Below are positions 10,067-59,184 of a stretch of 64,000 nt of DNA, piece by piece (position 1 is the first letter of the stretch; each line of letters opens with the position of its first letter). The stretch comes from an uncultured virus (IMG/VR IMGVR_UViG_3300031951_000099). Lineage: Duplodnaviria > Heunggongvirae > Uroviricota > Caudoviricetes. The stretch lies in IMG/VR virus record IMGVR_UViG_3300031951_000099. One strand, written 5' to 3'. The position numbers and the translations under genes are program-made. The notes beneath the pieces are model-generated. The model ran no database searches. It was given only the letters and a program-made list of their open reading frames with translations, and had not been told where the DNA came from.

Positions 10067-13000
10067 ATGAATATTGAATCATTATTATACGAAGCGCTCC
10101 AACTCCCGTCAACTAACCGAGCCCATATTAATGCGCTGCGGTACATTTTACATAAAGAAGTTTCCGTTGATTTAAAGTTCTTAGCGGCACAGTCCCTAAC
10201 GGAAATTCATAATCAATATAATTGGTGGATAACAGAACGGGGGTTGGACGAATCGTGCATTGTGGGACCAAACGATAGTGCCGCAACCGTCCGTAAAAAA
10301 TGTAAAAAAGCGTTCAAACATGGGGAGAAGGTGTACCCCATGCACTGGATTTATGCTGTCTCTGGCTCCCCTATGGCGTCTGGATTGGGGGAAGAACACA
10401 ATCCCTACGATTCTCCAGACTATGCCTTAAACGGGTTCACGGGAACGTTTAAAAAGAAACAAGACCCAGAAGATAAAGAAACGTTAACTCGTCGATTTGC
10501 GGATTTAGACCCGATAGAAGAAGAAAAATCCAGTACGGAACGAGTTAGAAGATATTATAAAAGACATCCCGAAAAGGTCCGTAAATATTTGAAAGATACG
10601 GTCAAGGATCGTGTTGCTCGTAATCGGGACCGGGCAAAGGCTATCAAAAAACATGGTAAAGAAAAGATGAAGAACCATGACGTGCACCATCCGAACGGAC
10701 CACAAAACGGTGGGGCACGATTGGCTAAAAAAGATCATGGACGGGATAAGGTGAATGAAGAATACTCACCAGATGTCATTTCTAGTACGATTCAAGAGTT
10801 TGTGAATTTTGCCGTACAAAAACTTCAATTACAAACTCTTCCTACCGTTACTATTATCCCATCATCTGACCATATGACGAGTTTGGGATATTATGATCCC
10901 ATGACGAAGCAAATCAATGTAGTCGTAGAAGGAAGATTACTAGCAGATATTTTACGGACACTTGCCCACGAATTAGCACATAGAAAACAAGACGAATTGG
11001 GATTGATTACCAACCCAATGATTGATGGTGCAACGGGATCTCCCATAGAAAATAACGCAAACGCAATTGCAGGAATTCTACTCCGTCAATATGGTCAAAG
11101 TAATCCTCGTATATTCATGACCGAAGGATTGTTGATGGAAGGTGGTGCACATGGACATCTAGCACATCCATTTGAAGACACAGATTTATCGTTTGATGAC
11201 TTTGATGAAATGATTAGTCGGTCGTTAGTGGGTAATTTAGAAAAGGAAGGACCGGTCGTAGAAAAAATGGACGGTCAAAATATTGCGTTCACTGTTCGTG
11301 ATGGAAAGGTTGTATTTGCACGAAACAAAGGACATGTAAAAAATCGTGCAGAAAAAGCACTATCAGCAGAAGAATTAGCCAAAATGTTTGCAGGTCGTGG
11401 GGAAATCTCCGATGCATTTGCTAAAGCAGCAGAAGATATTGAAGTGGCAATGAGTAAACTGTCACCTGAAGAAATTGAACAAGTATTTGGAGACGGTAGA
11501 CGAGTGATGAGTACCGAAATTATTTACCCGGGCACTCGTAACGTAATTCCATATGACAAGACGGTGTTGGTATTTCATGGTACATTGGAACATGATGATG
11601 ATGGCGAAAAAGTCGGTGTTCAAAACACTGAAAATGGACAAATTATTGCTAATGCCGTAACTAAAGCAAACGCAGATAAACAACGTACGTTTGGTATTTC
11701 GGGTCCACGAACAGTTGCTATTTCGGATCAAGTCACTGAAGAAATGCAGCAAGTATACACTCGATTATCACAAAAATTAGAAGATCTTCGTGCGCAATAT
11801 AATTTAAAACCATCTGCTACGTTACACGATTATTTGGAAGAATGGTGGAACGAACAATTAACCGAAATAGAAAGTCAACAAGGATTTAAGTTCACCAATC
11901 AAGAACGTGCTGGACTTATTGCTCGTTGGATTGATAACGATAAAAAGTTTGGAGTAAAAAATCTATCCGATGAAAAGAAAGAATGGTTTAGAGAATTTGA
12001 AAAGAATGATCTAACACCAATGCTAAAACAATCCGTGAAACCTGTTGAGCAAGTATTTTTAACCGCAGGTGTATATGCATTAAAACGTGTTGTAGAGTTT
12101 CTATCGGCAAATAATCCTGCAATGGCAGAAGAATTGAAAAAACAATTTGTAGATAGTATACGTGGTATACAACAAGCGGGTGGTCCTGGAAAATTACAGA
12201 AATTAGAATATGAACTAGCTAGATTAAAAGAACTTGGTATTGATAACGTGGTACCAAGTGAAGGATTAATATTCACATATAATGGTAATCCGTATAAATT
12301 AACAGGTGCATTTGCTCCGGTAAATCAAATTATTGGAACAATGAAATATGACAGAGCTCCTGAAAAACCAGAGGCTTCATCAACAGAGCCGCAAAAGACC
12401 GAAGCACCGCCAGAAAAAGCACAAGACGAACCTGTACAGCCAGAAACTCCCGTACAACCACCTAAACCAATTGCCATCTATCCAGGACGTTTTCAGCCAT
12501 ATCATGCGGGACATCATGTGACGTATGAAGCATTGGTTGAAAAGTTTGGAAGGGAAAACGTGTATGTAGTGAGTTCAGACAAGCAAGATAGTATTACGTC
12601 ACCATTTGGGTTCAGTGACAAACAGGAAATCATGACAAGTATGTTTGATATTCCAGAAGATCGTATTATTCAAGTAAAAAATCCATACAATCCAATAGAA
12701 GTAACAAAAGGATTACCCGAAGGAACTCCTGTAATATTTGCAGTGGGTGAGAAAGATGCGCAACGATTGGGTGGTAAATACTTCCAAAAATATGATCCAA
12801 ATGAAAAAATGTTAGGGTACAAACAAGCAGGATATGTGTGGATTGGACCCCCACCAAATCTGGAAGTTAATGGAAAAGAAATTAGTGGTACACAACTTCG
12901 TGCAGTTATGGGTGATCCAGCTATTACGGATAGAGCAAAACAAGAAATTTTTATTAAAATATATGGTAAGTTTGACAAGAACATTTTTGATAAAGTAGTC

Positions 13001-14002
13001 AAAAAAACGTCGGATGCAGAAGAGGCACGTAAATTAACGGATATGCACGGTAAACCAGAGAAACCTACCACAGAACCAGAAACTACGCCAAAAAAAGGAC
13101 GTGGAAAAAAACCTGACGAAAAAGCACTTGGTCGTGCTAAATCTGTACTAGGGCAAAAAGTTCGTAATCCAAAAACGGGTCGGGATATCTTGGTGGCAAC
13201 TGCATTAAAGTACCCAGAAGATGAACCTGTACGAAAGGCGGCTGAACGTATGGTACAACAAGCAATGGCGGAAAAAAATGAAATATTATCCGAAGGAAAA
13301 GCACCAAAAAAACTTAAGGTATATACACACATCCGTGAATATACCGATGAAGATTTGGAATATGAAAAAGACGAATATTTTAATAATGAACGAACATTTG
13401 AAGCATTTCCAGATTTAGCAGATTCAGCAGATGAATTAAAAAAATTAATTTCTAATGCGGCAAGTGAAGTACTAGAAGTGGAAGAACTACAAGCATTAGA
13501 AAATAGTGATGTTGGGGAGGTCTTACGTGGTGAAAATAAGATGAAAGTATTAAAAAATCTTATTAGTAAAGAAAAAGACGTAAAAGGATTACTTAGTGAT
13601 ATTAAAAATAAGAAGCCGATTGCCATGCCAATTATTATTAAGCACACCAACGGATACTACTTATTGGGGGGAAACACTCGGTTGTCAGTCCTTGCGGCAA
13701 TTGGACATACAATGCCTGTGAAAGTTTTGGGTCAAGCAAGTCCATATCCATCCCCGTATGTAGTTGGAAAGTCGGGAGACGTAAAAAAGACGGGTAAGAA
13801 AAAGACAGGAAACAAAGATTTATTTAAAAAGTTAATGCAGATGCGTATCACTAATCCTGAGACGGGTAATCAAGTCAAAGTGGATACGGCAATGGATTAT
13901 GATAGATTACATCCTGCTCATAAAGCAGCAATGGCGTTTATTCGTCAACACATGAAAGGAATTTCCAACCGAGCAGGTATACCAAAAAACAGAAATGACT
14001 AA
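10067..14002 (+). CDS. Multi-domain protein: HNH-like segment, HExxH domain, KxDG ligase-like nucleotidyltransferase, HxGH cytidylyltransferase-like domain, ParB/Srx-like domain
   Basis: Motifs in order: DVHHPNG; TLAHELAH (10967-10981); VEKMDGQNIAF (11261); IAIYPGRFQPYHAGH plus ISGTQLR (12482 on); MPIII..GYYLLGGNTRL (13667). Confidence 0.75.
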   Translation: MNIESLLYEALQLPSTNRAHINALRYILHKEVSVDLKFLAAQSLTEIHNQYNWWITERGLDESCIVGPNDSAATVRKKCKKAFKHGEKVYPMHWIYAVSGSPMASGLGEEHNPYDSPDYALNGFTGTFKKKQDPEDKETLTRRFADLDPIEEEKSSTERVRRYYKRHPEKVRKYLKDTVKDRVARNRDRAKAIKKHGKEKMKNHDVHHPNGPQNGGARLAKKDHGRDKVNEEYSPDVISSTIQEFVNFAVQKLQLQTLPTVTIIPSSDHMTSLGYYDPMTKQINVVVEGRLLADILRTLAHELAHRKQDELGLITNPMIDGATGSPIENNANAIAGILLRQYGQSNPRIFMTEGLLMEGGAHGHLAHPFEDTDLSFDDFDEMISRSLVGNLEKEGPVVEKMDGQNIAFTVRDGKVVFARNKGHVKNRAEKALSAEELAKMFAGRGEISDAFAKAAEDIEVAMSKLSPEEIEQVFGDGRRVMSTEIIYPGTRNVIPYDKTVLVFHGTLEHDDDGEKVGVQNTENGQIIANAVTKANADKQRTFGISGPRTVAISDQVTEEMQQVYTRLSQKLEDLRAQYNLKPSATLHDYLEEWWNEQLTEIESQQGFKFTNQERAGLIARWIDNDKKFGVKNLSDEKKEWFREFEKNDLTPMLKQSVKPVEQVFLTAGVYALKRVVEFLSANNPAMAEELKKQFVDSIRGIQQAGGPGKLQKLEYELARLKELGIDNVVPSEGLIFTYNGNPYKLTGAFAPVNQIIGTMKYDRAPEKPEASSTEPQKTEAPPEKAQDEPVQPETPVQPPKPIAIYPGRFQPYHAGHHVTYEALVEKFGRENVYVVSSDKQDSITSPFGFSDKQEIMTSMFDIPEDRIIQVKNPYNPIEVTKGLPEGTPVIFAVGEKDAQRLGGKYFQKYDPNEKMLGYKQAGYVWIGPPPNLEVNGKEISGTQLRAVMGDPAITDRAKQEIFIKIYGKFDKNIFDKVVKKTSDAEEARKLTDMHGKPEKPTTEPETTPKKGRGKKPDEKALGRAKSVLGQKVRNPKTGRDILVATALKYPEDEPVRKAAERMVQQAMAEKNEILSEGKAPKKLKVYTHIREYTDEDLEYEKDEYFNNERTFEAFPDLADSADELKKLISNAASEVLEVEELQALENSDVGEVLRGENKMKVLKNLISKEKDVKGLLSDIKNKKPIAMPIIIKHTNGYYLLGGNTRLSVLAAIGHTMPVKVLGQASPYPSPYVVGKSGDVKKTGKKKTGNKDLFKKLMQMRITNPETGNQVKVDTAMDYDRLHPAHKAAMAFIRQHMKGISNRAGIPKNRND

Positions 14003-28367: not shown

Positions 28368-29942
28368 ATGTCAGATGTACAAGAATTTATCAACGAAGCA
28401 GGTAGTGCACATAAGCACGTCATTGATCAAACCCGCAAATTAGCAGGTAAGTGGGAACGTTCAGGTCTTTTGGAAGGGTTGAAGGGATATGATCGTCAAG
28501 GTATGGCGGTTATGTTGGAAAACCAAGCAACGCAACTTCTCCAAGAAAACAGTAAGACAAACTCAGCCGGAACAAGTGGTGAACAATGGGCAGGTGTTGC
28601 ACTTCCATTAGTTCGTAAGGTTTTCGGAAGCATTGCAAGTAAGAACTTCGTCTCAGTTCAACCAATGAACCTCCCAGCCGGACTTGTTTTCTACATGGAT
28701 TTCAAGTATGGCAACACACGTAACGGACAAACGTCTGCTACATCACTCTATGGAACAGCTGCAAGTTCAACGTGGGGTGGATTTGGAAACACGGATGCGG
28801 GTGGTTTGTATGGTGCAGGACGGTTTGGATACTCCATTAACAACGCAACAACAAGTTCACTTGCAGTAACTTCAGCATCGGTTTCATTTGCTGATGTAAA
28901 TTTCAACGATACATACGTTGCAACCGGTTCATTGAAGAAATACACAGTAAGTGCAGGTGTATTACCAAATGCTGATTGGTTAGCAGTACGTACATTCGTA
29001 CCAAGTGGTTCAGGAATTGATTTTGGTGCATTGGTTCTTCCTGAATTTACCAAGTATGATGGAACAAACGTAACCTTCATCGTCAATAGTTCATTCGGTG
29101 GTGTTGCCCCTCTCCAAGCAGTAACATGGGTCAAGCAACCAACCGATACAACACGTGGTGATTTTGAAGATCGTGATGGTTCAACTGATTTGAACATTCC
29201 ACAAATTGATTTGGAACTCAAGAGTGAAACCATCGTTGCCAAGACACGTAAGTTGAAGGCGGTATGGTCACCAGAACTTGCACAAGACTTGAATGCATAC
29301 CACTCAGTTGATGCAGAAGCAGAATTGACCAGTATGTTGTCAGACTATGTTGCAACAGAAATTGACCTTGAAATTCTTGACATGTTGATCAATGCAGCAC
29401 AAACAACCGAATACTGGTCAGCAGAAATCGGTTCAACATGGAACGGTTCAGCATTTGCCGCTTCATCCTTCACAGGAACAGCATGGACCAACATGACCTG
29501 GTTCCAAACACTTGGTCAGAAGATGCAAAAGGTCAGTAACCGTATCCACCAACTCACAATGCGTGGTGGTGCAAACTTTGCAGTGGTTTCACCAACGGTT
29601 GCAACAATTCTCGAAACCATCCCTGGCTTCCAAGCTGGAACAGATGGTGACAAGATGGAATTTGCTGCTGGTGTAACCAAGATTGGTTCATTCCAAAACC
29701 GTTACACCGTATACAAGAACCCATATATGAAGGAAAATGTTCTTCTTATGGGCTTCCGTGGTTCACAATTCTTGGAAACTGGTGCAGTCTATGCCCCATA
29801 CATTCCATTGATCATGACACCACTTGTGTACGATCCAAACAACTTCACGCCACGCCGTGGTGTGATGACACGTTACGCAAAGAAGATCGTCCGTCCAGAA
29901 TTCTTCGGCAAGATCTACATCGACAAGCTTGCACAAGTCTAA
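28368..29942 (+). CDS. gp23: Major capsid protein (T4 gp23-like)
   Basis: VQPMNLPAGLVFY, AKTRKLKAVWSPELAQDLNAYHSVDAEAEL, YAPYIPL, DPNNFTPRRGVMTRYA. Confidence 0.97.
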   Translation: MSDVQEFINEAGSAHKHVIDQTRKLAGKWERSGLLEGLKGYDRQGMAVMLENQATQLLQENSKTNSAGTSGEQWAGVALPLVRKVFGSIASKNFVSVQPMNLPAGLVFYMDFKYGNTRNGQTSATSLYGTAASSTWGGFGNTDAGGLYGAGRFGYSINNATTSSLAVTSASVSFADVNFNDTYVATGSLKKYTVSAGVLPNADWLAVRTFVPSGSGIDFGALVLPEFTKYDGTNVTFIVNSSFGGVAPLQAVTWVKQPTDTTRGDFEDRDGSTDLNIPQIDLELKSETIVAKTRKLKAVWSPELAQDLNAYHSVDAEAELTSMLSDYVATEIDLEILDMLINAAQTTEYWSAEIGSTWNGSAFAASSFTGTAWTNMTWFQTLGQKMQKVSNRIHQLTMRGGANFAVVSPTVATILETIPGFQAGTDGDKMEFAAGVTKIGSFQNRYTVYKNPYMKENVLLMGFRGSQFLETGAVYAPYIPLIMTPLVYDPNNFTPRRGVMTRYAKKIVRPEFFGKIYIDKLAQV

Positions 29943-29969
29943 TACAATTCGTAACGTGGTTAATAAATT

Positions 29970-29994
29970 GGGTGGTCTTCGGACCACCCTTTTT
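29970..29994 (+). terminator. Rho-independent terminator with a cUUCGg tetraloop
   Basis: GGGTGGTC-TTCG-GACCACCC-TTTTT after the capsid gene. Confidence 0.92.
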
Positions 29995-30030
29995 ATTATC
30001 TATAAGTCATGGTTAACATGTGGTATTTGA

Positions 30031-30038
30031 TATTTATA
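30031..30038 (+). promoter_or_regulatory. Putative late promoter TATTTATA
   Basis: Just after the terminator, 23 nt before ATG 30062. Confidence 0.65.
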
Positions 30039-30061
30039 TATGTCTCTAATAGAGGGCATGT

Positions 30062-31246
30062 ATGCAGAATCGTGAACCTATAATATTTGAAGAAACACGA
30101 ATTAGTCCTGTTAATGCAACTCCGTTTGGTTTTTATGACGGGGATGTGGAATTTCAACAAGAAGCGCCAGAAGTTGCCACGTTTGTTGCTAGACGACTGG
30201 GATATCCTGTCGTTGATGTAGAATTAACACATAAGCAAATTTATGCATGCTTAGAGGAAGCAATTACAACATACAGTAATCAGGTAAATCAATTCAATGC
30301 ACGTGAACATATGTTTGCTTTGCAGGGAATGAACACAAGTATTAATATTACTCAAAGAAATATATTAGCAACGCCACTACCTCAATTGGTTAAATTATCC
30401 GCTCAATACGGAACAGAAGCAGAAAGCGGTGGAAATGTTACAATAAAACGAGGATATATCAGTGCGTCTGCGTATCAACAAACATATGATTTGAAGTCAT
30501 TGTGGGCAGATCCATATGAAAGCGGGTCTGCTATAGAAATTCGTCGTATCTATCACTATATGCCACCTGCCATTGCTCGTTACTATGACCCATTTGCAAC
30601 GACGGGTCTTGGATTAACTAACTTGATGAGTGAATTTGGATTTGATGGATATTCACCGCCCGTGACATTCGTGATGATGCCTGCATACGAAGATTTACTC
30701 CGTATTCAAGCAATTGAAGTGAATGATATGATTCGTAAAAGTCAATATAGTTTTAGTGTATCCAATAACGTTGTTAAATTTACCCCCATATTTACAAAAA
30801 ATACAACTATTTGGTTTGATTATATGGTAGTAGGTGATAAACAAAATGGATCGTCTAATAATGGAATTGGCGGAGTAATTCAATCGGGATCAGAAAATAG
30901 TGTGGTTTCAGATTTATCTAATATTCCATATGAAAACATTCAATATAAAAATATCAATAGCATTGGACGGTTGTGGATTTATCGGTACACACTAGCTTTG
31001 GCAAAAGAATTACTAGGTAACGTACGATCAAAATATCAAGAAATTCCAATACCAGACGCAACAATACGAATGGATGGAGAAACACTTCGCCGAGAAGCGT
31101 CTGAAGAAAAGAAAGGATTGATAGAAGAAATTCGTGAAACCTTAGAACAAACTGGTATGCAAGCACAGTTGAAAAAACAGATGGAAAATGCACAAGCAAT
31201 GCAAAGTATTTTTGTACACGTTCCTACTCAAATTTTTATAGGATAA
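30062..31246 (+). CDS. gp13: Neck/adaptor protein (T4 gp13-like)
   Basis: RRLGYPVVDVELT..QI..CLEEA; WIYRYTLALAKELLGNVRSKY...I.MDGETL..EA. Confidence 0.85.
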   Translation: MQNREPIIFEETRISPVNATPFGFYDGDVEFQQEAPEVATFVARRLGYPVVDVELTHKQIYACLEEAITTYSNQVNQFNAREHMFALQGMNTSINITQRNILATPLPQLVKLSAQYGTEAESGGNVTIKRGYISASAYQQTYDLKSLWADPYESGSAIEIRRIYHYMPPAIARYYDPFATTGLGLTNLMSEFGFDGYSPPVTFVMMPAYEDLLRIQAIEVNDMIRKSQYSFSVSNNVVKFTPIFTKNTTIWFDYMVVGDKQNGSSNNGIGGVIQSGSENSVVSDLSNIPYENIQYKNINSIGRLWIYRYTLALAKELLGNVRSKYQEIPIPDATIRMDGETLRREASEEKKGLIEEIRETLEQTGMQAQLKKQMENAQAMQSIFVHVPTQIFIG

Positions 31247-31247
31247 C

Positions 31248-31709
31248 ATGCCAAGATTCGTTTCTGCAAGAGATTATCAATTTTTTCAACATATCAACCG
31301 AGAAATCGTAGTTGATGTTATTGACGTTGAAGTCATATTATATAAAATAATAAATGATGTAGTCAACGTAAACATATACGGGGAATCAACTGAAAAAACA
31401 TATTACAAAGGCATTAGTTTGAATGGATTAATTAAATACCCAAAAAAGACTGCAGCAACTGACGATGGATTTGGATATGATATTACCCAAAAAAACGTTG
31501 AATTTAGGTTTGTAAGACAAATATTACAAGATGTAAATGTATATCCTGATGTTGGAGATATCATCAAATATAATGAAAATTATTATACAATTGATAATAT
31601 TAACGAGGCACAACTAATTGCCGGTAGACCAGAATATAATCAAGCCATTATATGCCAATCGCACTTAACTCGTAAAAGTAATATTAATCTTGAGGATACG
31701 CATATATGA
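31248..31709 (+). CDS. Neck/head-closure protein (gp14-like)
   Basis: Follows the gp13-like gene; NIYGES...PDVGDIIKYNENYYTI. Confidence 0.65.
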   Translation: MPRFVSARDYQFFQHINREIVVDVIDVEVILYKIINDVVNVNIYGESTEKTYYKGISLNGLIKYPKKTAATDDGFGYDITQKNVEFRFVRQILQDVNVYPDVGDIIKYNENYYTIDNINEAQLIAGRPEYNQAIICQSHLTRKSNINLEDTHI

Positions 31710-32500
31710 ACCGTCCAACATTTGACGTAAACAATTCTACAGTACGTAACAGATATAATCGTGGGTTTGATACAAAACACGAACCGGGAGTGAGTAAACA
31801 AGTTGAGATTGGATTACAAACAATAGATACTGCAATATTACGGTATCTGCAAAATAATATAAAACCAGTGGTGTCACAACAAGGTAAACAAATACCCGTT
31901 CCAGTCATATATGGAAATCCAGAACGATGGAAAAGTGCACAACAAGATGGAGCGTTGCGAGATAAGAACGGGATGATTATGTTACCTATCATGATGATTG
32001 CACGAACAGGACTAAAAGAAAATAGCATCAATAATCCAACAAACAAATATCAAACATATACATTTAAAACCGGATGGAACTCAAGAAATATTTATGACAG
32101 GTTTGCGTTAGTAAATGGCATAACTCCTAGTCAGGTGTATCACTCATCGGTCATGCCAGATTTTTATGATATAACATATGAAGGGGTTGTGTGGACAGAA
32201 TTCACAGAACAAATGAATAAAGTAATAGAAAATTTGTCGTTTGAAAGCAACGAATATTGGGGCGAGATAAATAACTATAAATTTATTTCAAAGATTGGTC
32301 AATTTGAAAATACGGTTCAATTACCGGCGGATAGTTCACGATTGGTCAGAAGTAAATTTACCGTTGACGTAAAAGCATATATACTTCCACAGAGTACGTT
32401 AGATAAAAACGGCAACCGAGAACAAACCACAAAACTGCAATACTCGCCAAAAAAGGTTGTATTTGACACCGAAGTCATCACGGGTCCAATAAATAAATGA
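31706..32500 (+). CDS. Tail terminator/completion protein (gp15-like)
   Basis: IPVPVIYGNPERW...LPIM...PDFYDITYE..VWTEF.EQMNKVIE. Confidence 0.7.
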   Translation: MNRPTFDVNNSTVRNRYNRGFDTKHEPGVSKQVEIGLQTIDTAILRYLQNNIKPVVSQQGKQIPVPVIYGNPERWKSAQQDGALRDKNGMIMLPIMMIARTGLKENSINNPTNKYQTYTFKTGWNSRNIYDRFALVNGITPSQVYHSSVMPDFYDITYEGVVWTEFTEQMNKVIENLSFESNEYWGEINNYKFISKIGQFENTVQLPADSSRLVRSKFTVDVKAYILPQSTLDKNGNREQTTKLQYSPKKVVFDTEVITGPINK

Positions 32501-32521
32501 TATTTTGAGATTTGTTTTGTA

Positions 32522-32529
32522 TATTTATG
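32522..32529 (+). promoter_or_regulatory. Putative late promoter variant TATTTATG
   Basis: 30 nt before ATG 32560. Confidence 0.4.
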
Positions 32530-32559
32530 ATATGTATAGAACTTTAAAAGAGAGTGTTT

Positions 32560-32820
32560 ATGAAAAAGGTTTTGGATGAAGAATTACAAGAATTGAAGAG
32601 TCTTCGGGAAACATACTTGGAAATAATAACCACACTGGGTGAACTTCATTTAAGTAAAAAAATACTAGAAAATAATCTAAAAGAGTTATCCCTACTTGTT
32701 GAAACGCAAGAAAATCGGTTTACAGAATTCCAAGAAAAAGAAAGGGTTTTATACGAAAAGTTGCAGCAAAAATATGGAACCGGTGATATTGATTTTGATA
32801 CCGGAGAAATAACAGAATAA
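32560..32820 (+). CDS. Small coiled-coil protein
   Basis: Heptad pattern; ends KYGTGDIDFDTGEI. Start reassigned to ATG 32560. Confidence 0.7.
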   Translation: MKKVLDEELQELKSLRETYLEIITTLGELHLSKKILENNLKELSLLVETQENRFTEFQEKERVLYEKLQQKYGTGDIDFDTGEITE

Positions 32821-32843
32821 TATAACCCATTTGGAGGATTCGT

Positions 32844-35498
32844 ATGGCAAATGAAAGAATTGTTTCCCCTGGAGTTTTCACACGGGAAAGAGACTTAAGT
32901 TTCTTAACCCAGGGTATCAGTGAAATTGGGGGCGCATTTATTGGACCAACACCAAAGGGTCCAGCATTTATCCCGACAATTGTAAGAAGTCAACAAGAAT
33001 ATGTTACCCGTTTTGGTGAAGCCGATGCAAATCACTACACAGGGTTAACGGTAAAAAATTATCTACGTGAATCTGGTGTAGCAACCATCGTTCGTGTTCT
33101 TGGAACGGAAGGATACAGTAATACAACCACAATCCCCGCACTTGTTTATGTGTCAGGATCCGGTGGAAATAAATTATTTGCAGTTATCCACCCAAGTAGT
33201 ACTGGGAATACAATCAACAGTGTTACTGCAACTGGATCTGGAACTAGTTTCACATTATCGGTAGATACTGCAGCAGGAACGGATATTTCAAACCAATCAG
33301 GATTGAGTGTCAATCCTGATTCAAATGGATATCTAGGAAATTTACTGGGATACAGTCCCGTTACAACGAAAAACTCCTATATCTACGCAATATTCCCAGA
33401 TGCAGTTACAGAAGTAGGATCATACGGTACTATAGGGGGATTATCAGTTGCATCACAATCATTGAATGCAAGTGACGTTCCGGCTGGTGTTTCTACGGGA
33501 AGTCTTGTTAAGTATGTTATACCAACTACATCATTTTCCAATCTAGATACTACTAAGTTATCTAGCGTAGCTGTTACTGGATCTGGTGTAAATTTTGCCT
33601 CATTGTTACTAACACAATATACGGCAACGTCTGCATCAAATATCATGTTTATCGTAAGTTCAAGTTCAACGGGAACACTTACGACAGTAACCACATATCC
33701 AAAAACATCAACTGGGGTATTTCAAGATGTTATAGTATCCGCAACTACGTCCAGTACGGCATTAAACTTTCTTGATGCGGGATATTCTAACGCACATACA
33801 CCTTGGATTCAATCACAAACAATTGCAAATTTAAATGTTGATCTATTTAAACTTCATACATTGGGTGATGGAAACAGTGCAAACAGAGAAATTAAAGTAT
33901 CCTTGTTAAACATGAAACCAAGTAGCGATGTTGAATATGCGTGGGGAACATTTTCTCTTGTAATCCGTAAATATGATGATACGGATGCACGTCAAGAAAT
34001 ACTTGAACAATACGATAATCTAACACTGGACCCAGATAGTCCACAATATATTGCACGAGTGATTGGTAATAGTGCGCCAACAGAAGATCAAGTCACGGGT
34101 GAAATGTATTATCAAGGTGATTTCCCAAATAATTCACAGTACGTATACGTAGAAATGAATGATTCGGTAATTCCAGATAGTGCTCTCCCATTTGGATTTG
34201 GAACATTGGAATCAAGTATAAGACTACCTGCAATAAATCTTGCATCACCAAATTATGTAACATCACGTTGGCTTAGTGGTACAACGGAAGGATATACTAC
34301 GGAGTCTATTGATAAGAGATATTATTATGGATGGGATTTCTCTGTAGCAAATGGTACAAACGAATCGTATTTAAATCCAGTATCGGATCCAAATAACACC
34401 AACCCAATTATAGTTGGAACTGCGTTTAACTTAGAAAATTTGGTTGAAGTTCCAAGTGGATCATCATCACAGTTCTCTGCATCAATTTCACTTACCGATG
34501 ATAATTCGTTCATTTACCGTAAATTTTCTGTACCGTTCTTTGGCGGGTTTGACGGACTAAATCCAGCACGTGATATTAAGTTAGGTGGTGACATATTGTC
34601 AAATAATTCACAAGGATTTGATTTATCAACGTCGGTTGCAGCCGGATCAAAGGCATATAAGAAAGCACTAAACGCTATCAGTAATCCAGATCAATGGGAT
34701 TTTAACCTCTTGGTATTACCTGGTGTTATCTATGATTTCCATTCATATGTTGCAAATGAAGCGTTAAGTCTTTGTGAAGATCGTGGTGACGCATTCTACA
34801 TCATGGACACGACTGGATTAAATGCTACACTTGCAACGGCAACAGCAAAAGCAGGGGAAATTGATAGTAACTATGCAGCAACTTATTATCCGTGGTTGAG
34901 AGTAATTGATGTTAATACCAATAAATTAATTTGGGTACCACCGTCAGTTATCCTTCCGGAAATCTATGCATACAACGACAACGTTGCAGCAGAATGGTTT
35001 GCACCAGCAGGGTTGAACCGTGGTGGTATTGCAAGTGCAGTGGGTGTGAAGGTCCGTCTCCCACAAGCAAGTCGTGATACTCTCTATGAAGGTAAGGTTA
35101 ACCCAATCGCACAGTTCCCTGGACAGGGCATCTGTGTGTGGGGTCAAAAGACACTACAACGTCGTCCATCAGCACTTGATCGTGTCAATGTCCGCCGGTT
35201 GTTAATTGCTGTGAAGAAATATATTGCAAGTGCTTCACGTTACCTCGTGTTTGAACAAAACGTAGAATCCACACGCAATCGTTTCTTGAACATCGTCAAC
35301 CCATATTTGGCAAGTGTCCAAGAACGTTCTGGTTTGTACGCATTCCGTGTCATTATGGATGAAACCAATAATACACCGGACTTGATTGATAGAAATATCC
35401 TTTACGGACAACTCTATCTCCAACCAACCCGTACCGCTGAATTCATCATCCTTGATTTCAACGTACTTCCAACGGGCGCTACATTCCCAACGGCATAA
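32844..35498 (+). CDS. gp18: Tail sheath protein (T4 gp18-like)
   Basis: VSPGVFTRERDLS; WFAPAGLNRG; WGQKTL...ALDRVNVRRLL; LQPTRTAEFIILDF. Confidence 0.96.
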   Translation: MANERIVSPGVFTRERDLSFLTQGISEIGGAFIGPTPKGPAFIPTIVRSQQEYVTRFGEADANHYTGLTVKNYLRESGVATIVRVLGTEGYSNTTTIPALVYVSGSGGNKLFAVIHPSSTGNTINSVTATGSGTSFTLSVDTAAGTDISNQSGLSVNPDSNGYLGNLLGYSPVTTKNSYIYAIFPDAVTEVGSYGTIGGLSVASQSLNASDVPAGVSTGSLVKYVIPTTSFSNLDTTKLSSVAVTGSGVNFASLLLTQYTATSASNIMFIVSSSSTGTLTTVTTYPKTSTGVFQDVIVSATTSSTALNFLDAGYSNAHTPWIQSQTIANLNVDLFKLHTLGDGNSANREIKVSLLNMKPSSDVEYAWGTFSLVIRKYDDTDARQEILEQYDNLTLDPDSPQYIARVIGNSAPTEDQVTGEMYYQGDFPNNSQYVYVEMNDSVIPDSALPFGFGTLESSIRLPAINLASPNYVTSRWLSGTTEGYTTESIDKRYYYGWDFSVANGTNESYLNPVSDPNNTNPIIVGTAFNLENLVEVPSGSSSQFSASISLTDDNSFIYRKFSVPFFGGFDGLNPARDIKLGGDILSNNSQGFDLSTSVAAGSKAYKKALNAISNPDQWDFNLLVLPGVIYDFHSYVANEALSLCEDRGDAFYIMDTTGLNATLATATAKAGEIDSNYAATYYPWLRVIDVNTNKLIWVPPSVILPEIYAYNDNVAAEWFAPAGLNRGGIASAVGVKVRLPQASRDTLYEGKVNPIAQFPGQGICVWGQKTLQRRPSALDRVNVRRLLIAVKKYIASASRYLVFEQNVESTRNRFLNIVNPYLASVQERSGLYAFRVIMDETNNTPDLIDRNILYGQLYLQPTRTAEFIILDFNVLPTGATFPTA

Positions 35499-36181: not shown

Positions 36182-36535
36182 ATGGCAGAATTTACAGATT
36201 TTCAATTTGGCCAAGGTGAAACGTTTCGGTTTGCTGCCACAATTATTAGCGATGACGGAATTACGGCATTCAATATAACAGATTATACATTTATTGGTCA
36301 AGTAAGAGAAAATTATACAACGGAAGAAATTGCAGCTACATTAAATATTACAAAATATTTACCGTATACGTCTGGTAGTATTATGGTGGAATTAACACCA
36401 ACGCAAACAATGAATCTCGGTTCAAGAAAATACGTGTACGATGTAAATATGACTAGCGGATCCGTTGCACCAATAACACGAAGAATATTAGAAGGTACGT
36501 TGACCGTCCGTCCTACTGCTACGAGAAATGATTGA
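36182..36535 (+). CDS. Small beta-sandwich virion accessory protein
   Basis: QGETF...FNITDY...QVR...ELTPTQT..L...KYVYDV...RILEG.LTVRP pattern. Confidence 0.65.
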   Translation: MAEFTDFQFGQGETFRFAATIISDDGITAFNITDYTFIGQVRENYTTEEIAATLNITKYLPYTSGSIMVELTPTQTMNLGSRKYVYDVNMTSGSVAPITRRILEGTLTVRPTATRND

Positions 36536-37587
36536 TGAGTGGTTCACTTAATCTAGGAATACCAAATATAACGGTTGTTGTCAGAGAAAATACTGACACA
36601 AATAAAATTGCATTAGCACTTCCTGATGTAAGTGTCAATGTTCAGCAGGGAAATAACTATACTGTAGAAATACAACCACCGGATTTGGTAGTATATAGAA
36701 CAGGCTCGTTACCTGCAATTGCTATATCTGCATATTCTGCTTCATATGTACAAACAGCAGACACAGCAAACACTGCCTCATATGTACAAACAGCACAATC
36801 TACAATCAGTGCTTCATACGCATTAAAAGCAACTACATCAAGTTTTGCAACAAGAGCAGTTACATCATCACTTGCGTTAAATTCTAATACAGCAAATACT
36901 GCGTCATATGCATTATTTGCATTAAGTGTGGCGGCAAGTGCTTCTTCGGTATATACTAATTTAAGTGCATCAAATGATTTATTTGTTGGTAATAATCTAA
37001 CGGTAGGAACTTCGGCAACTATCCCGTCCATCACGGGTTCCGTAACAGAAGCAATAACTTCGTCATATGCAATAACGGCTTCGTATGTAAGTGGAGCTAT
37101 CGTTGGATGGAATGAGGTTATTAATAAACCGACAGGAATTGTGTCAAGTTCGGTGCAAACGGTAGAGTATATCAACAATCAGATAATAACTCCATCAAGT
37201 GTAACCGCATCAATTCAGTCAACGCAAATTCAAGTAAAATCAGATACATCAAATGTGTATCTAAGTTCGTCGGTAGTCACCGGAGTATATGACGAAACCA
37301 GAGTAATTGATCCACCAATATCAGTACAGAGCTTTTCAGGTGTATCAATTGAATATACCGCTCAGAGAACATCGGGAATTCGGTCTGGATTCATCATAGG
37401 ATCATGGAGCGGAAGTACTACGACATATACCGACGTTTCTAACACAGATATAGGAAGTACTGAAGATTTATCGTTTAATCTTATTAGAATAGGAGATAAT
37501 ATAAGATTGCGAGCATTAAGTATAGGATCCGGAACTGGAACTTGGAGTATTCAATTCTTATTTAAACTGTTTCCTAACCTATTATAA
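36532..37587 (+). CDS. Ser/Thr-rich fibre/appendage protein
   Basis: ASY/ASF repeats; C-terminal domain shared with 37621-39780. Confidence 0.7.
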   Translation: MMSGSLNLGIPNITVVVRENTDTNKIALALPDVSVNVQQGNNYTVEIQPPDLVVYRTGSLPAIAISAYSASYVQTADTANTASYVQTAQSTISASYALKATTSSFATRAVTSSLALNSNTANTASYALFALSVAASASSVYTNLSASNDLFVGNNLTVGTSATIPSITGSVTEAITSSYAITASYVSGAIVGWNEVINKPTGIVSSSVQTVEYINNQIITPSSVTASIQSTQIQVKSDTSNVYLSSSVVTGVYDETRVIDPPISVQSFSGVSIEYTAQRTSGIRSGFIIGSWSGSTTTYTDVSNTDIGSTEDLSFNLIRIGDNIRLRALSIGSGTGTWSIQFLFKLFPNLL

Positions 37588-55053: not shown

Positions 55054-56331
55054 ATGGCTCCAAGAAAAAAGAAAAAAGTTTCTAATCCAACGATTTATAT
55101 ACAAATTGCCGCATACCGAGATCCTGAATTATTAAATACATTACGGGATTGTTTAGCAAATGCTGATCATCCTGATAGATTACGATTTGGTATTGCCTGG
55201 CAACATTCCCCATACGAAGAGTGGGATAACTTAGACGAGTTTAAAGATGATTCTCGTTTTGATATTATTGATATTGATTATCGTGATGCGAAGGGTCCGT
55301 GTTGGGCGAGACATCAACTAAATAAAGCCTATAATAAAGAAACGTATACAATGCAGTTAGATTCCCATCACAGGTTTAGTAAGGGATGGGATACTACAGT
55401 TATTGAGATGCTGGAAAGTCTTCGTTCAAAAGATTGCCCAAAACCACTATTAAGTTCCTATCTTCCCAGTTTTGATCCAAAAAACGATCCCGCTGGTAGA
55501 ATGATGATACCGTGGATTATGGAATTTGACCGGTTTGCTCCTGAAGGGCCCGTACACTTTTTACCGCACACCATAGATAATTTTAAAGAACTAGATCGTC
55601 CAATGCCGTCACGATTTATTTCGGGTCATTTTATTTTTGCCGATGGGAAATTTTGTAAAGAAGTGGAATATGACCCCACGTACTATTTTCATGGAGAAGA
55701 GATCAATCTGTCTGTACGAGCGTATATGGCGGGGTATGATTTATTTGCTCCACATAGACCAGTTATTTGGCATGAATATACACGAGAAGGTAAAAAGAAA
55801 CATTGGGATGACCATACTGATTGGAAAGAATTAGATACTACATCCCACAAACATAATAGAACTTTACTAGGTATTGATGTAATCTCACCATCAAATAAAT
55901 TAGTAAAAAAACAAGTTAGATCATTAGAACAATATGAATTGTATGCGGGATTAAAGTTTAGTACACGACAAGTACATAGAGATACGATTACCAAGAAATT
56001 ACCTCCCGTGTCAATAGATGAAGTATATCATGCACAGGGATTGGCAAAATACCATAGAATGTGTATAGACGTACATAGACCAGAATTTACAGAAAATGAT
56101 TATAATGTTTGGGTAATTGCATTTGAAAATAAAGAAGGGGTAGAAATTCATAGAGAAGACGCATATGAACAGGAAATTCAGAGAATTTTAAGTGTTCCGT
56201 ATGAACAAGATAAATTTTCACACATCTGGAGAAATTTTTATCACGACGACCTACCAGCAAAATGGATAGTATGGCCTCATAGTTTGAGTAAAGGATGGAT
56301 GACTAGATTATCTGGAGAGTTTAACATATGA
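55054..56331 (+). CDS. GT60/Gnt1-like polypeptide GlcNAc transferase, paralog 1
   Basis: IYIQIAAYRDPEL, GPCWAR, QLDSHHRF..GWD, FISGHFIF, DPTYYFHGEEI..SVRAY..GYDLF.P...IWHEY. Confidence 0.85.
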   Translation: MAPRKKKKVSNPTIYIQIAAYRDPELLNTLRDCLANADHPDRLRFGIAWQHSPYEEWDNLDEFKDDSRFDIIDIDYRDAKGPCWARHQLNKAYNKETYTMQLDSHHRFSKGWDTTVIEMLESLRSKDCPKPLLSSYLPSFDPKNDPAGRMMIPWIMEFDRFAPEGPVHFLPHTIDNFKELDRPMPSRFISGHFIFADGKFCKEVEYDPTYYFHGEEINLSVRAYMAGYDLFAPHRPVIWHEYTREGKKKHWDDHTDWKELDTTSHKHNRTLLGIDVISPSNKLVKKQVRSLEQYELYAGLKFSTRQVHRDTITKKLPPVSIDEVYHAQGLAKYHRMCIDVHRPEFTENDYNVWVIAFENKEGVEIHREDAYEQEIQRILSVPYEQDKFSHIWRNFYHDDLPAKWIVWPHSLSKGWMTRLSGEFNI

Positions 56332-57569
56332 AAAAGAATCAAAACATTTTTATTCAAATTGCCGCATACCGAGATCCAGAATTATTACCAACGATTCGTA
56401 GTTGTATTGCAAATGCAAAGAAACCCAAAAATTTACGTTTTTGTATTGCGTGGCAACATGCAACCGAGGATGATTGGGATACGTTAGATGAATTTAAAAA
56501 CGATGCTCGTTTTAAAATTCTTGATATACCTCATTTACAAACTAGAGGAACGTGTTGGGCACGATACCAAATTCAAAAGCATTGGACTGATGAAGCTTAC
56601 ACGTTACAGTTAGATTCACATCACCGATTTGCAAAAGATTGGGATGATACACTAATTAAAATGGTAAAGGATTTACAAAAAGTAGGACACAAAAAGCCAT
56701 TACTGACTGCATATGTATCAAGTTACGAACCACACAATGATCCTACTGGTAGAGCAACAGATCCGTGGTTTTTGACATTTGACAGATTTACGCCACAGGG
56801 AGCAGTATTTTTTATTCCATCCGTAATTCCAGATTGGCAAAATAGAACACTTCCATATCCGAGTCGATTCTATTCAGCACACTTTGGATTTACCCTTGGA
56901 CAATTCTGTAAAGAAGTTCCTCACGATCCCAATTATTTATTTCATGGCGAAGAAATTTCTATTGCTGCCCGAGCCTATACATGGGGTTATGATTTGTTTT
57001 CTCCTCATAAACCAGTAGTATATCATGAATATTCTCGGGAACATCGTCCACGAAAGTCGTGGGATGATATAGCAGAATGGGGACGTTGGGATAATGCTTC
57101 TTTGGCAAGAAATAGACGATTACTCCGCATTGACGGAGAACATGATCCGGCAGAAGATTTCGGTGATTTTGGATTTGGAACTATTAGAACGCTTGAAGAT
57201 TATGAAAATTATGCAGGTATTAAATTTGATACACGATCTGTGCAACAATATACGTTAGATCACAAAGAACCTCCTAATCCTCCAGGAGAACCATATCTAC
57301 GTGTATTCAAACATTGTATTGATATACCAATATCATGGGTACCGTACAATGATTATGATGTATGGGCAGTGGCATTTGAAAATAAAGAAGGGGTAGAAAT
57401 TCATAGAGAAGATGCCAATGAACAAGAAATTTTGATGATGAAAAACGACTCCGCCGGATATTGTAAACTCTGGAGAATATTTCACACATTAGACCAGCCA
57501 AAACGATGGATTGTGTGGCCACACTCAAGAGAACATGGATGGGGTGAACGGTTGACAGGAGAACTATGA
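56328..57569 (+). CDS. GT60/Gnt1-like polypeptide GlcNAc transferase, paralog 2
   Basis: IFIQIAAYRDPEL, GTCWAR, QLDSHHRFAKDWD, FHGEEISIAARAYTWGYDLFSP. Confidence 0.85.
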   Translation: MKKNQNIFIQIAAYRDPELLPTIRSCIANAKKPKNLRFCIAWQHATEDDWDTLDEFKNDARFKILDIPHLQTRGTCWARYQIQKHWTDEAYTLQLDSHHRFAKDWDDTLIKMVKDLQKVGHKKPLLTAYVSSYEPHNDPTGRATDPWFLTFDRFTPQGAVFFIPSVIPDWQNRTLPYPSRFYSAHFGFTLGQFCKEVPHDPNYLFHGEEISIAARAYTWGYDLFSPHKPVVYHEYSREHRPRKSWDDIAEWGRWDNASLARNRRLLRIDGEHDPAEDFGDFGFGTIRTLEDYENYAGIKFDTRSVQQYTLDHKEPPNPPGEPYLRVFKHCIDIPISWVPYNDYDVWAVAFENKEGVEIHREDANEQEILMMKNDSAGYCKLWRIFHTLDQPKRWIVWPHSREHGWGERLTGEL

Positions 57570-58489: not shown

Positions 58490-59184
58490 TACATTTCTGC
58501 ATGGCTTTTTGGACAGATGGCCAAGAAAATAGTAGCAGAGAACGAAATGTACACTTAACGTGGCCATATTTAAAGGATATGGTACGATATCTAAACAGTA
58601 AGTCGGTACCCGCTACTGCCAATATATTTGACTATTCACCAGAAAAAATAATTGACGACGCAACACATATTCCATACCCAATTGGAACATATAAACGATC
58701 AGAAAAACTTAACGGAATAATAAATACATTTCCAGAGGAAGATAACATTTGTTTGATGGACTGCGATGTATTTATACATCGGACACAATGGGATGCGTTA
58801 GCCACTCTCGCATCAAACGTAACATATGAAATTGGGTTTTTCTTTAATTTTGCAAAACTTGACGATGGAAATATACCATTAGATCAAGTTGATCCGCACG
58901 GAACACATCCATTAGTATTTACAAAAGGATGTGTTGGTGGATTCGGTGGATTTCATTTAACATCAATCAAATCTATAAAAGACATTGGATTTTTTGATGA
59001 AAAATTTACTACGTGGGGAGGGGAAGATGGACATTTGATGGATAGATGGAATTATAAATTCATACGAACCGGGGTCAGTGAGGATCGTGTGTTGCCATTA
59101 CATCTACCGCATTTTCAAGACAGAGAAAACATTTTATATTTTAATAGAGAAGAATATGTCAGAAACAACAATCTTGCCGTATAG
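58486..59184 (+). CDS. GT-A glycosyltransferase (GT2/GT7-C-like)
   Basis: DCD motif; IGFFDEKFTTWGGED. Confidence 0.75.
   Translation: MIHFCMAFWTDGQENSSRERNVHLTWPYLKDMVRYLNSKSVPATANIFDYSPEKIIDDATHIPYPIGTYKRSEKLNGIINTFPEEDNICLMDCDVFIHRTQWDALATLASNVTYEIGFFFNFAKLDDGNIPLDQVDPHGTHPLVFTKGCVGGFGGFHLTSIKSIKDIGFFDEKFTTWGGEDGHLMDRWNYKFIRTGVSEDRVLPLHLPHFQDRENILYFNREEYVRNNNLAV

What the first reader, a model, noticed from the sequence alone, without database searches (positions are those of the whole stretch)
28860..33665. Major capsid protein and tail sheath share a homologous inserted domain
Seen: MCP 28917-29093 (VATGSLKKYTVSAGVLPNADWLAVRTFVPSGSGIDFGALVLPEFTKYDGTNVTFIVNSS) aligns without gaps to sheath 33489-33665 (VSTGSLVKYVIPTTSFSNLDTTKLSSVAVTGSGVNFASLLLTQYTATSASNIMFIVSSS), with 22 of 59 residues identical by my count. 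An upstream L.V.S.S....DV match adds to this. Established: HK97-fold capsid and sheath cores are unrelated, and both tolerate surface insertions. Inference: the capsid insertion domain was copied into the sheath (or the reverse), so head and tail display the same module, perhaps a docking site for fibres or a glycosylation platform.
Basis: partly seen in the sequence, partly recalled or inferred. Interest (0 to 1): 0.75.

Follow-up and report, generated by a model that had tools for sequence, protein, structure and literature searches.

The report
Capsid insertion domain copied into tail sheath
In one group of uncultured T4-like phages, the small knob-like domain that sticks out of the head protein has been copied into the outer face of the tail sheath protein, a real but optional add-on that most close relatives lack.

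Summary
MCP residues 160-264 and sheath residues 195-291 are homologous: BLASTP E 1e-8, z 10-15 against shuffles, profile-profile E 1.3e-14. A profile made from sheath inserts alone finds the MCP, and nothing else, in three related records.

The MCP is gp23-like. The shared piece is its globular insertion (I) domain. It lies where T4's I domain lies and is present in all MCP relatives compared. In the sheath it is a clean insert of about 100 aa (residues 191-292). Only 11 of 114 near-identical sheaths carry it, and all more distant sheaths lack it.

The 11 inserts form one clade that branches among this lineage's MCP I domains, so there was one MCP-to-sheath copy. The sheath cores of the carriers are not one clade (p-AU 1.8e-13). 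That means repeated loss or recombination, and I could not tell which.

The insert is variable, rich in Ser/Thr and under relaxed purifying selection. Both copies are modelled confidently, with the same order of secondary-structure elements.

Function is inferred: an accessory, outward-facing surface module. Docking-site and glycosylation roles remain untested.

The parts
28368..29942 (+). Major capsid protein, gp23-like (T4-type HK97 fold), 524 aa
   Evidence: Pfam PF07068 Gp23, E 9.6e-74, residues 72-513. PHROG 138 major head protein, E 7.7e-70. Profile against PDB: T4 gp23*, E 4e-33.
28839..29141 (+). Globular insertion (I) domain of the MCP, residues about 158-258. This is the donor module. 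The homology to the sheath runs over about residues 160-264 (28845-29159).
   Evidence: It is the only confidently modelled part of the AF2 MCP model (pLDDT 62-84 over 160-260). It is flanked by stretches that align to gp23* 24-79 and 175-413, so it sits at T4's I-domain position. It is the most variable part of the MCP (column identity 0.55 versus 0.88). hhalign to the sheath insert gives E 1.3e-14.
28665..28838 (+). Presumed I-domain linker 1 (residues about 100-157)
   Evidence: Inferred. The stretch is Gly/Ser/Thr-rich, has pLDDT 25-41, and is positionally equivalent to the T4 I-domain linkers described in PMC9546572 (passages). It is not part of the homology with the sheath.
29142..29267 (+). 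Presumed I-domain linker 2 (residues about 259-300, begins KQPTDTTRGDFED)
   Evidence: Inferred. It is conserved in all MCPs, and the MCP-sheath homology ends at its start (alignment A5). pLDDT is 25-38.
32844..35498 (+). Contractile tail sheath protein, 884 aa
   Evidence: Pfam Phage_sheath_1 (residues 602-770) and Phage_sheath_1C (775-874). PHROG 23 tail sheath, E 8.9e-73. Foldseek to T4 gp18 chains, E 1e-10.
33414..33719 (+). Sheath insert, residues 191-292: the copy of the MCP I domain
   Evidence: It is a clean indel in alignment A1, present in 7 of 20 aligned sheaths and in 11 of 114 close relatives. AF2 pLDDT is 84-92. A profile of inserts alone finds the MCP in three records at E 3e-16 to 4e-14. 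Column identity is 0.51 and Ser+Thr 37%. dN/dS is 0.17 in the one unsaturated pair.
33117..33413 (+). First part of the extra distal sheath domain that hosts the insert (residues 92-190)
   Evidence: It is a beta-rich domain with pLDDT 77-93 and is present in all sheaths of the lineage. It is not homologous to the MCP (no-insert sheath profile versus MCP profile, E 0.38). It lies N-terminal to the part that matches the outer domains of T4 gp18.
33720..33776 (+). Return strand or strands of the distal domain after the insert (residues 293-311)
   Evidence: The AF2 model has H289-295 and E297-302 directly after the insert. This segment aligns with no-insert sheaths in A1.
33777..34574 (+). Sheath region equivalent to the outer domains of T4 gp18 and phiKZ gp29 (residues 312-577)

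Best explanation
The window belongs to an abundant lineage of uncultured myoviruses. Their nearest deposited relatives are Flavobacterium phage immuto, Microcystis phage Mel-JY01 and Rhodothermus phage RM378, that is, the 'Far-T4' neighbourhood.

The MCP is gp23-like. As in T4, it carries a globular insertion (I) domain on two long linkers at the E-loop position. In this lineage the globular part alone (about 95-100 aa, without the linkers) was duplicated once. It was inserted in frame into a loop of an already extra, outermost domain of the tail sheath protein. A domain that is itself inserted through two linkers should have its two ends close together, which would let it drop into a surface loop of another protein without disturbing the host fold (inferred).

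The sheath copy then diverged quickly. It became rich in Ser/Thr and shows no sign of homogenisation with the resident MCP, yet it stayed a folded unit under purifying selection. It is dispensable for sheath function, because about 90% of sheaths that are 70-90% identical in their cores lack it.

I take it to act as an accessory, outward-facing surface module of the tail, in the same class as other additional sheath domains. It may weakly bind a surface or environmental ligand, or it may brace neighbouring sheath subunits. The origin, direction, single event and dispensability are shown. The exposure on the particle and the function are inferred.
For: Homology:
- BLASTP E 1e-8.
- Shuffle z 10.5-14.6, with 0 of 2000 shuffles reaching the observed score.
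- hhalign of 11 insert-bearing sheaths versus 38 MCPs: probability 98.3%, E 1.3e-14, sheath 195-285 versus MCP 160-254. The control with 103 no-insert sheaths gives E 0.38.
- All 11 query rows (9 distinct insert-bearing sheaths) hit the lineage's MCPs by BLASTP. Best E values run from 2e-5 to 3e-19, with up to 52% identity.
- A profile of 5 sheath inserts hits exactly two places in each of three records (56, 164 and 146 kb; one of them 90% complete): the sheath, and the MCP at E 3e-16, 5e-15 and 4e-14.

No third home for the module:
- The domain HMM against 4,954 six-frame ORFs (800,642 bases) hits only MCPs and insert-bearing sheaths at E<1e-3.
- phmmer of the insert against 1.84 billion representatives gives 2 hits: an MCP fragment (E 5e-6) and a junk repeat.

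Direction of transfer:
- The segment is aligned in all 5 MCPs compared, including immuto, Mel-JY01, LR756508 and RM378.
- The HMM detects it in the Mel-JY01 MCP (1e-13) and the immuto MCP (3e-7).
- It sits where T4's I domain sits.
- The sheath insert is absent from those four phages' sheaths and from 103 of 114 close sheaths.

Single event: the 11 inserts form one clade (99/96*; 100/99*). That clade lies on the ingroup side of the branch (99/98*) that separates the Mel-JY01, immuto and LR756508 MCPs.

Folded, selected and variable:
- pLDDT is 84-92 in the sheath copy and 62-84 in the MCP copy, from independent alignments. The secondary-structure elements come in the same order, offset by 30-36 residues.
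- dN/dS is 0.17 in the insert versus 0.02 in the core for the unsaturated pair.
- Column identity is 0.51 in the insert versus 0.90-0.93 in the sheath core.

Context from papers:
- The T4 I domain protrudes from the capsid surface and lies on the neighbouring subunit (PMC9546572, passages).
- Additional sheath domains lie away from the tube and are thought to serve adhesion or stability (PMC9230969, passages).
Against: - The two models could not be superimposed directly because no coordinates are available. The shared PDB match has low Z (4.4-5.3), which the tool warns can be a common arrangement.
- The MCP model is poor overall (mean pLDDT 48), so the I-domain boundaries rest on one confident island.
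- Fold identity with T4's own I domain was not shown. There was no sequence hit between the module profile and gp23, and VIA and Foldseek aligned T4 chains through other parts.
- In the domain tree the ingroup is a polytomy, RM378 is misplaced on a 5.5 branch, and only 111 columns were available. 'Nested within the lineage' therefore rests mainly on one branch.
- Nothing here shows where the insert sits on a real particle or that it binds anything.
- The Ser/Thr-rich drift and patchy distribution are also what a nearly neutral passenger would show.
Confidence: 0.82

Rival explanations
1. The insert is a structural brace. It keeps the capsid I domain's job of lying on a neighbouring subunit, and on the tail it ties adjacent sheath subunits together, stabilising the extended or contracted lattice.
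For: - In T4 the I domain sits on the neighbouring gp23* subunit and reinforces the capsomer, with a 460-650 Å2 interface (PMC9546572, passages).
- The review PMC3185693 says such domains stabilise capsids by bridging neighbours (passage).
- PMC9230969 proposes that additional sheath domains may cement the assembled tail (passage).
- The sheath copy is under purifying selection.
Against: - The original partner surface (the MCP A domain and spine helix) does not exist in the sheath.
- The long stem branch (0.8-0.96 changes per column) and the shift to 37% Ser+Thr suggest the old interface was not kept.
- About 90% of near-identical sheaths work without the insert.
Confidence: 0.2
2. The insert is a nearly neutral passenger: an accidental in-frame duplication tolerated in a permissive surface loop, now being lost lineage by lineage.
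For: - The distribution is patchy: 11 of 114 sheaths, needing 8 changes on the core tree.
- Variability is high (0.51).
- dN/dS is higher than in the core, 0.14-0.67 versus 0.02-0.08.
- P0211 carries only a short stretch at the insert site that may be a deletion remnant.
Against: - The reading frame is intact in all 11 carriers (9 distinct plus variants) despite 40-65% divergence among inserts.
- dN/dS is well below 1.
- The fold-determining motifs TGSL.KY, SGSG.NF and N..FIV.S are kept.
- The AF2 model is confident.
Confidence: 0.2
3. MCP and sheath each took the module independently from a third, promiscuous source, in the way Ig-like domains spread among phage structural proteins, rather than one from the other.
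For: Promiscuous accessory domains on phage heads and tails are well known (statement quoted in PMC9230969).
Against: - No third carrier was found in the window, in 800 kb of related loci, in three related records including one 90% complete, in 50,697 phage records, in viral contigs by pattern or in 1.84 billion representatives.
- No Pfam family fits the module: none matches more than 1 of the 20 module sequences at E<=1.
- The sheath clade nests on the ingroup side of the MCP tree.
Confidence: 0.04
4. The similarity is a chance or compositional artefact of two Ser/Thr/Gly-rich surface segments.
For: Both segments are enriched in Ser/Thr (22% and 37%), and both have long antisense ORFs, a sign of biased composition.
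Against: - The composition-adjusted BLASTP gives E 1e-8.
- Block shuffles that keep local composition still give z 10.5.
- The equally Ser/Thr-rich neighbouring sheath domain 92-190 gives nothing (E 0.38).
- Other sheath and MCP pairs from the lineage reach E 3e-19 and 49% identity.
Confidence: 0.01

Closest known systems
Insertion (I) domain of bacteriophage T4 gp23/gp24 major capsid and vertex proteins
   Same: The window's MCP is a Pfam Gp23 member. Its module sits between stretches that align to gp23* 24-79 and 175-413, exactly where T4's I domain and linkers lie. Like T4's I domain, it is a compact globular unit between two long flexible stretches (PMC9546572 passages).
   Different: No sequence similarity to T4's I domain was detectable, and fold identity was not shown. 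T4's I domain is described as a capsid-only stabilising feature (PMC9546572). Here a copy lives in the tail sheath.
Additional (non-core) domains of phage tail sheath proteins, as surveyed in 'Evolution of Phage Tail Sheath Protein' (PMC9230969)
   Same: The insert is a nested extra domain in the middle of the chain, between the conserved N- and C-terminal core parts. It is variable, dispensable and probably peripheral. This is the general pattern that paper describes (passages).
   Different: That survey describes the extra domains as mostly Ig-like beta-sandwiches of unstated origin. In the passages I read it names no capsid-protein donor. Here the donor is identified as the phage lineage's own MCP I domain, and the domain matches no Ig-like Pfam family.
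Promiscuous Ig-like domains on phage structural proteins (Fraser et al. 2006, seen only as quoted and cited in PMC9230969)
   Same: An accessory domain is shared between head and tail proteins, is exposed and fast-evolving, and has a patchy distribution among close relatives.
   Different: The module is not a member of the Big_2, I-set or FN3 families by sequence. It is not mobile across many protein types: only MCP and sheath carry it. It arose from an integral, lineage-wide part of the capsid protein, not from a free-moving cassette.

Membership tests
T4-type (gp23-like) major capsid protein, Pfam PF07068 | Significant match to the Gp23 profile over the HK97-fold core | tested here: met
   E 9.6e-74, 249.5 bits against a cut-off of 24.4, residues 72-513. 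T4 gp23* in PDB at E 4e-33.
T4-type capsid I domain | An extra domain inserted at the E-loop-equivalent position, between the N-terminal strand region and the core | tested here: met
   MCP 72-127 aligns to gp23* 24-79 and MCP 269-505 to gp23* 175-413. That leaves MCP 128-268 opposite gp23* 80-174.
T4-type capsid I domain | Same fold as T4 gp23/gp24 I domain ('chitin-binding-like', per PMC3185693 passage) | tested here: inconclusive
T4-type capsid I domain | Lies on the neighbouring subunit of the same capsomer and reinforces it | not testable with these tools
   This needs a capsid structure. It is known for T4 only (PMC9546572 passages).
Contractile tail sheath, Pfam PF04984 + PF17482 | Sheath subtilisin-like and C-terminal domains | tested here: met
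   E 1e-11 (residues 602-770) and 3.2e-11 (775-874), both over their cut-offs. Foldseek to T4 gp18 chains, E 1e-10.
Ig-like accessory domains of phage structural proteins (Big_2, I-set, FN3) | Match to an Ig-like Pfam family | tested here: not met
   Of 20 module sequences (15 MCP, 5 sheath) scanned at E<=1, no family matched more than one. The single Cna-B-like hit had E 0.038.
Homologous module shared by MCP and sheath (the claim itself) | Profile-level similarity restricted to the insert, with a negative control | tested here: met
   hhalign gives E 1.3e-14 with insert-bearing sheaths and E 0.38 with no-insert sheaths. The insert-only profile finds the MCP in 3 of 3 records at E<=3e-14.
Homologous module shared by MCP and sheath (the claim itself) | Same predicted fold | tested here: inconclusive

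The most novel reading that the evidence does not exclude
The capsid I domain is a self-contained, portable binding module, and its sheath copy keeps the same partner. Head and tail of these phages would then present one common outward-facing site. That site could be the acceptor for the phage's own glycan machinery: the window carries two PF11397 GlcNAc-transferase-like genes, an epimerase, GT7- and GT10-like genes and a carbamoyltransferase, starting about 20 kb downstream of the sheath. Alternatively it could be the docking site for a shared decoration or fibre protein. Carrying or lacking the sheath copy would then switch whether the tail is coated like the head.
Probability: 0.12. Interest if true: 0.75.

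Novelty: new variant of a known kind. Interest (0 to 1): 0.55.

Why it matters
Extra domains on phage sheaths and capsids are common, but where they come from is rarely traceable. Here the donor, the recipient, the direction and the number of events can all be read from sequence. An integral capsid domain, described for T4 as a capsid-specific stabilising device, turns out to fold and persist outside the capsid lattice, in a different machine.

This gives a natural experiment on how insertion domains evolve new roles. It also offers matched natural with-insert and without-insert sheath variants, 70-90% identical in their cores, for testing what such accessory domains do.

The lineage is abundant in metagenomes: each of the two searches returned 8,000 proteins at E<=1e-10, and the 120 best listed were at least 77% (MCP) or 70% (sheath) identical to the window's proteins. 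The polymorphism may therefore matter ecologically. No match in four literature searches described a sheath domain derived from an MCP I domain. I saw only listings and selected passages, so this is not proof that the point is unpublished.

Tried and rejected
- Whole genome: none is held for this window, so further copies were sought in the window, in all fetched loci and in three related records.
- Homology beyond the insert: a long Smith-Waterman alignment (MCP 78-268 versus sheath 96-295) and some 190-aa BLAST hits of P0009 suggested it. The profile of no-insert sheaths gives E 0.38 against the MCP profile, so I rejected it.
- A second insertion site in three sheaths was a MAFFT artefact.
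- Recombination of the insert between sheath backgrounds: the large domain tree grouped P0203 with P0008. The smaller tree did not reproduce this, and the core-tree groupings were not rejected on the insert (p-AU 0.24 and 0.12). Recombination is therefore not shown.
- Junction microhomology at the DNA level: the alignment was uninformative.
- Fold assignment: Foldseek with the MCP model hit T4 gp23 only at rmsd 18-19 Å on a poor model. VIA wide gave weak, mixed beta-barrel matches for the module. Neither gives an assignment.
- The module profile against PDB sequences gave a best E of 0.19, and no Pfam family fits.
- The ESM Atlas returned only unnamed fragment clusters.
- tblastn of each module alone against 50,697 phage records gave no match at E<=0.01.
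- The pattern scan of viral contigs with the insert alignment found only the 10 sheath loci already known.
- Earlier-findings look-ups returned nothing.
- Link between the glycosyltransferases and the insert: PF11397 is present in 5 of 5 records, with or without the insert, so no link was found.
- Complex prediction with three copies of sheath 92-311 returned 'no answer' (score 0.00, controls not run). This is neither for nor against self-association.

Full report
**What is there.** The two peptides are at the stated coordinates and share 22 of 59 residues without gaps. One lies in a 524-aa protein (28368..29942) that is a gp23-like major capsid protein (MCP): Pfam Gp23 E 9.6e-74, T4 gp23* in the PDB at E 4e-33. 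The other lies in an 884-aa contractile tail sheath (32844..35498): Phage_sheath_1 and 1C, Foldseek to T4 gp18 at E 1e-10. The window is a phage structural module with terminase, portal, prohead protease, an acidic scaffold-like protein, MCP, adaptor, sheath, tube, fibre-like proteins and then a glycan-enzyme cluster. The nearest deposited phages are Flavobacterium phage immuto (MCP 55% identical), an uncultured 484-kb phage, Microcystis phage Mel-JY01 and Rhodothermus phage RM378. This is the neighbourhood called 'Far-T4' in PMC4360716, of which I saw the listing only.

**Is it more than chance?** Yes.
- Composition-adjusted BLASTP gives E 1e-8 over MCP 161-239 and sheath 196-271.
- The Smith-Waterman score of 143 lies 13.2 sd above 500 global shuffles and 10.5 sd above 500 shuffles that keep local composition. 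For 100-aa segments, 0 of 2000 shuffles reached the score.
- Within the window's 610 six-frame ORFs each segment finds only the other protein. The one further hit (E 0.007) is the antisense frame over the MCP segment itself.
- A profile of the 11 insert-bearing sheaths matches a profile of 38 MCPs at E 1.3e-14 (sheath 195-285, MCP 160-254). The same test with 103 sheaths lacking the insert gives E 0.38. That control also shows the equally Ser/Thr-rich neighbouring sheath domain is not part of the homology.
- Across the lineage, the 11 query rows (9 distinct insert-bearing sheaths) hit the 22 MCPs tested, with best E values from 2e-5 to 3e-19 and up to 52% identity. The weakest, L030, reached E<=1e-3 with 11 of 22 MCPs.
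- A profile built only from five sheath inserts hits exactly two places in each of three related records (one of them 90% complete): the sheath, and the MCP at E 3e-16, 5e-15 and 4e-14.

**What the capsid piece is.** The MCP flanks align to T4 gp23* residues 24-79 and 175-413, which leaves MCP 128-268 opposite the part of gp23 that holds its insertion (I) domain and linkers. The AF2 model of the MCP is poor overall (mean pLDDT 48). It has one confident island at 160-260 (pLDDT 62-84), flanked by low-confidence Gly/Ser-rich stretches. This fits a globular I domain on two flexible linkers, as described for T4 (PMC9546572, passages). The segment is aligned in all five MCPs compared. A domain HMM detects it in the Mel-JY01 and immuto MCPs (1e-13 and 3e-7). 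It is the most variable part of the protein, with column identity 0.55 against 0.88 for the core.

**What the sheath piece is.**
- Sheaths 70-81% identical to the window's come in two lengths. In alignment A1 the difference is one clean block, window residues about 191-292.
- Of the 120 best sheath relatives listed, 11 are 879-886 aa and the rest are about 773-788 aa, apart from fragments and one of 806 aa.
- All 11 carry the block at the same site. An apparent second site was an alignment artefact.
- The sheaths of Mel-JY01, LR756508 and RM378 have a gap there, and immuto's has unrelated sequence. The domain HMM hits none of the four.
- In the AF2 sheath model, residues 90-570 are confident and the insert has pLDDT 84-92.

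**Direction and number of events.**
- The module is resident in every related MCP but present in only a minority of one lineage's sheaths.
- In a tree of 68 module sequences (111 columns), the 11 sheath inserts form one clade (99/96*). The clade joins the lineage's MCP domains on the ingroup side of the branch (99/98*) that separates the Mel-JY01, immuto and LR756508 MCPs. RM378 is misplaced on a very long branch, and the ingroup is largely a polytomy. A smaller tree again gives one insert clade (100/99*).
- The insert of P0009 is sister to the others and the most MCP-like.
- Inserts are not closest to the MCP of their own genome. The window's own MCP ranks 14th of 22, L016's ranks 20th and L014's 5th. 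There is thus no sign of repeated copying or gene conversion.
- No third carrier was found anywhere I looked.

I conclude there was one MCP-to-sheath duplication after this lineage split from the immuto/Mel-JY01 group.

**Patchy distribution.** I built a tree of 117 sheath cores with the insert columns removed. Eight fragments shorter than 765 aa were dropped from the 122 proteins available, and three outgroup loci were added. On this tree the 11 carriers need 8 changes of state, and at least 6 are forced by well-supported branches. Holding them as one clade is rejected (lnL 691 lower, p-AU 1.8e-13). Either the insert is old and was lost many times, or it moves between closely related phages by recombination. 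The insert's own tree is too poorly resolved to decide, since the core groupings are not rejected on it (p-AU 0.24 and 0.12). One 806-aa sheath (P0211), sister to a carrier, has a short stretch at the site that faintly resembles the insert and may be a deletion remnant.

**Is the copy functional?** All carriers keep the frame open. Nei-Gojobori dN/dS in the insert is 0.14-0.67. Most pairs are saturated at synonymous sites. In the one unsaturated pair (L016/L017, dS 0.31) it is 0.17, against 0.02 in the core. The motifs TGSL.KY, SGSG.NF and N..FIV.S are kept between the MCP and sheath copies. The sheath copy has drifted to 37% Ser+Thr, against 22% in the MCP domain and 15% in the rest of the sheath. 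It is therefore a folded, selected but relaxed and fast-evolving unit, like the distal domain that hosts it (column identity 0.52).

**How it most likely works.**
- Shown: one-off copying of the globular I domain, without its linkers, into a loop of the sheath's extra distal domain; its dispensability; and its retention under selection.
- Inferred: exposure on the tail surface, and an accessory role of the kind proposed for other additional sheath domains, either weak adhesion to a surface ligand or bracing of the lattice.
- I favour a surface-display or adhesion role over a brace. The capsid partner surface does not exist on the sheath, the copy diverged strongly after transfer, and most relatives do without it. 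A nearly neutral passenger remains possible.
The window encodes two PF11397 GlcNAc-transferase-like proteins, an epimerase, GT7-like and GT10-like proteins and a carbamoyltransferase. The PF11397 genes are in 5 of 5 related records regardless of the insert. Phage virion glycosylation is known from mycobacteriophages (Freeman et al. 2023), a paper I saw only as a reference in PMC12619734.

**Novelty.** Extra sheath domains and domains shared between head and tail are known kinds. What is new here is the donor: an integral capsid I domain, described for T4 as a capsid-specific stabiliser. Four literature searches and the passages read gave no report of a sheath domain derived from it. I rate it a new variant of a known kind, of moderate interest.

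Noticed in passing
window 55054-63471 (+): A glycan-enzyme cluster lies directly after the tail and fibre genes. It holds two paralogous PF11397 'GlcNAc' glycosyltransferases (E 2e-69 and 2.5e-71), an NAD-dependent epimerase, a GT7-like protein, a GT10 fucosyltransferase-like protein, and an 863-aa carbamoyltransferase. PF11397 genes occur in 5 of 5 related records, with 1-4 open frames each. Their target (virion protein, DNA or host surface) is unknown.
   Followed up: partly
window 3-8162 (+), open at the 5' end: An ORF of at least 2719 aa ends in a Peptidase_S74 intramolecular chaperone domain (residues 2612-2676, E 4e-15). This is the signature of a very long self-cleaving tail fibre or spike.
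   Followed up: no
window 10067-14002 (+): A 1311-aa protein in the structural region has a cytidylyltransferase-like stretch at residues about 801-982 (PHROG 395, E 6e-11; Pfam CTP_transf_like, E 2e-4). That is an odd domain for a large virion-module protein.
   Followed up: no
protein P0211 (806-aa sheath relative), residues about 195-215: This sheath is sister to the insert-bearing P0203 on the core tree. At the insert site it carries only about 9-20 extra residues (LVPSATLSAA...), which faintly resemble the insert's VPTASL motif. It may be the remnant of a deletion of the insert.
   Followed up: partly
window 33117-33413 (sheath residues 92-190): The distal sheath domain that hosts the insert is itself extra relative to T4 gp18. 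It is as variable as the insert (column identity 0.52), has 29% Ser+Thr, and has no detected relative outside these sheaths.
   Followed up: partly
window 28748-29242 (-) and 33383-33694 (-): Long antisense ORFs (164 and 103 aa) lie exactly over the two homologous modules. The first gives a weak phmmer hit to the MCP module (E 0.007). I read them as by-products of the Ser/Thr/Ala/Gly-rich coding, not as genes.
   Followed up: no
window 36532-37587 (+): A 351-aa Ser/Thr/Ala-rich protein after the tail tube has short repeated motifs (…TASYVQTA…, …SSYA…). It matches no family and looks fibre-like.
   Followed up: no
models m2f5538dddf98 and mf8ff2263c30e: With shallow alignments (38 and 45 close relatives), AF2 modelled the variable outer domains confidently. 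It failed on the conserved cores (the MCP HK97 core and sheath residues 580-884 have pLDDT below 50). This is the reverse of the usual pattern.
   Followed up: no
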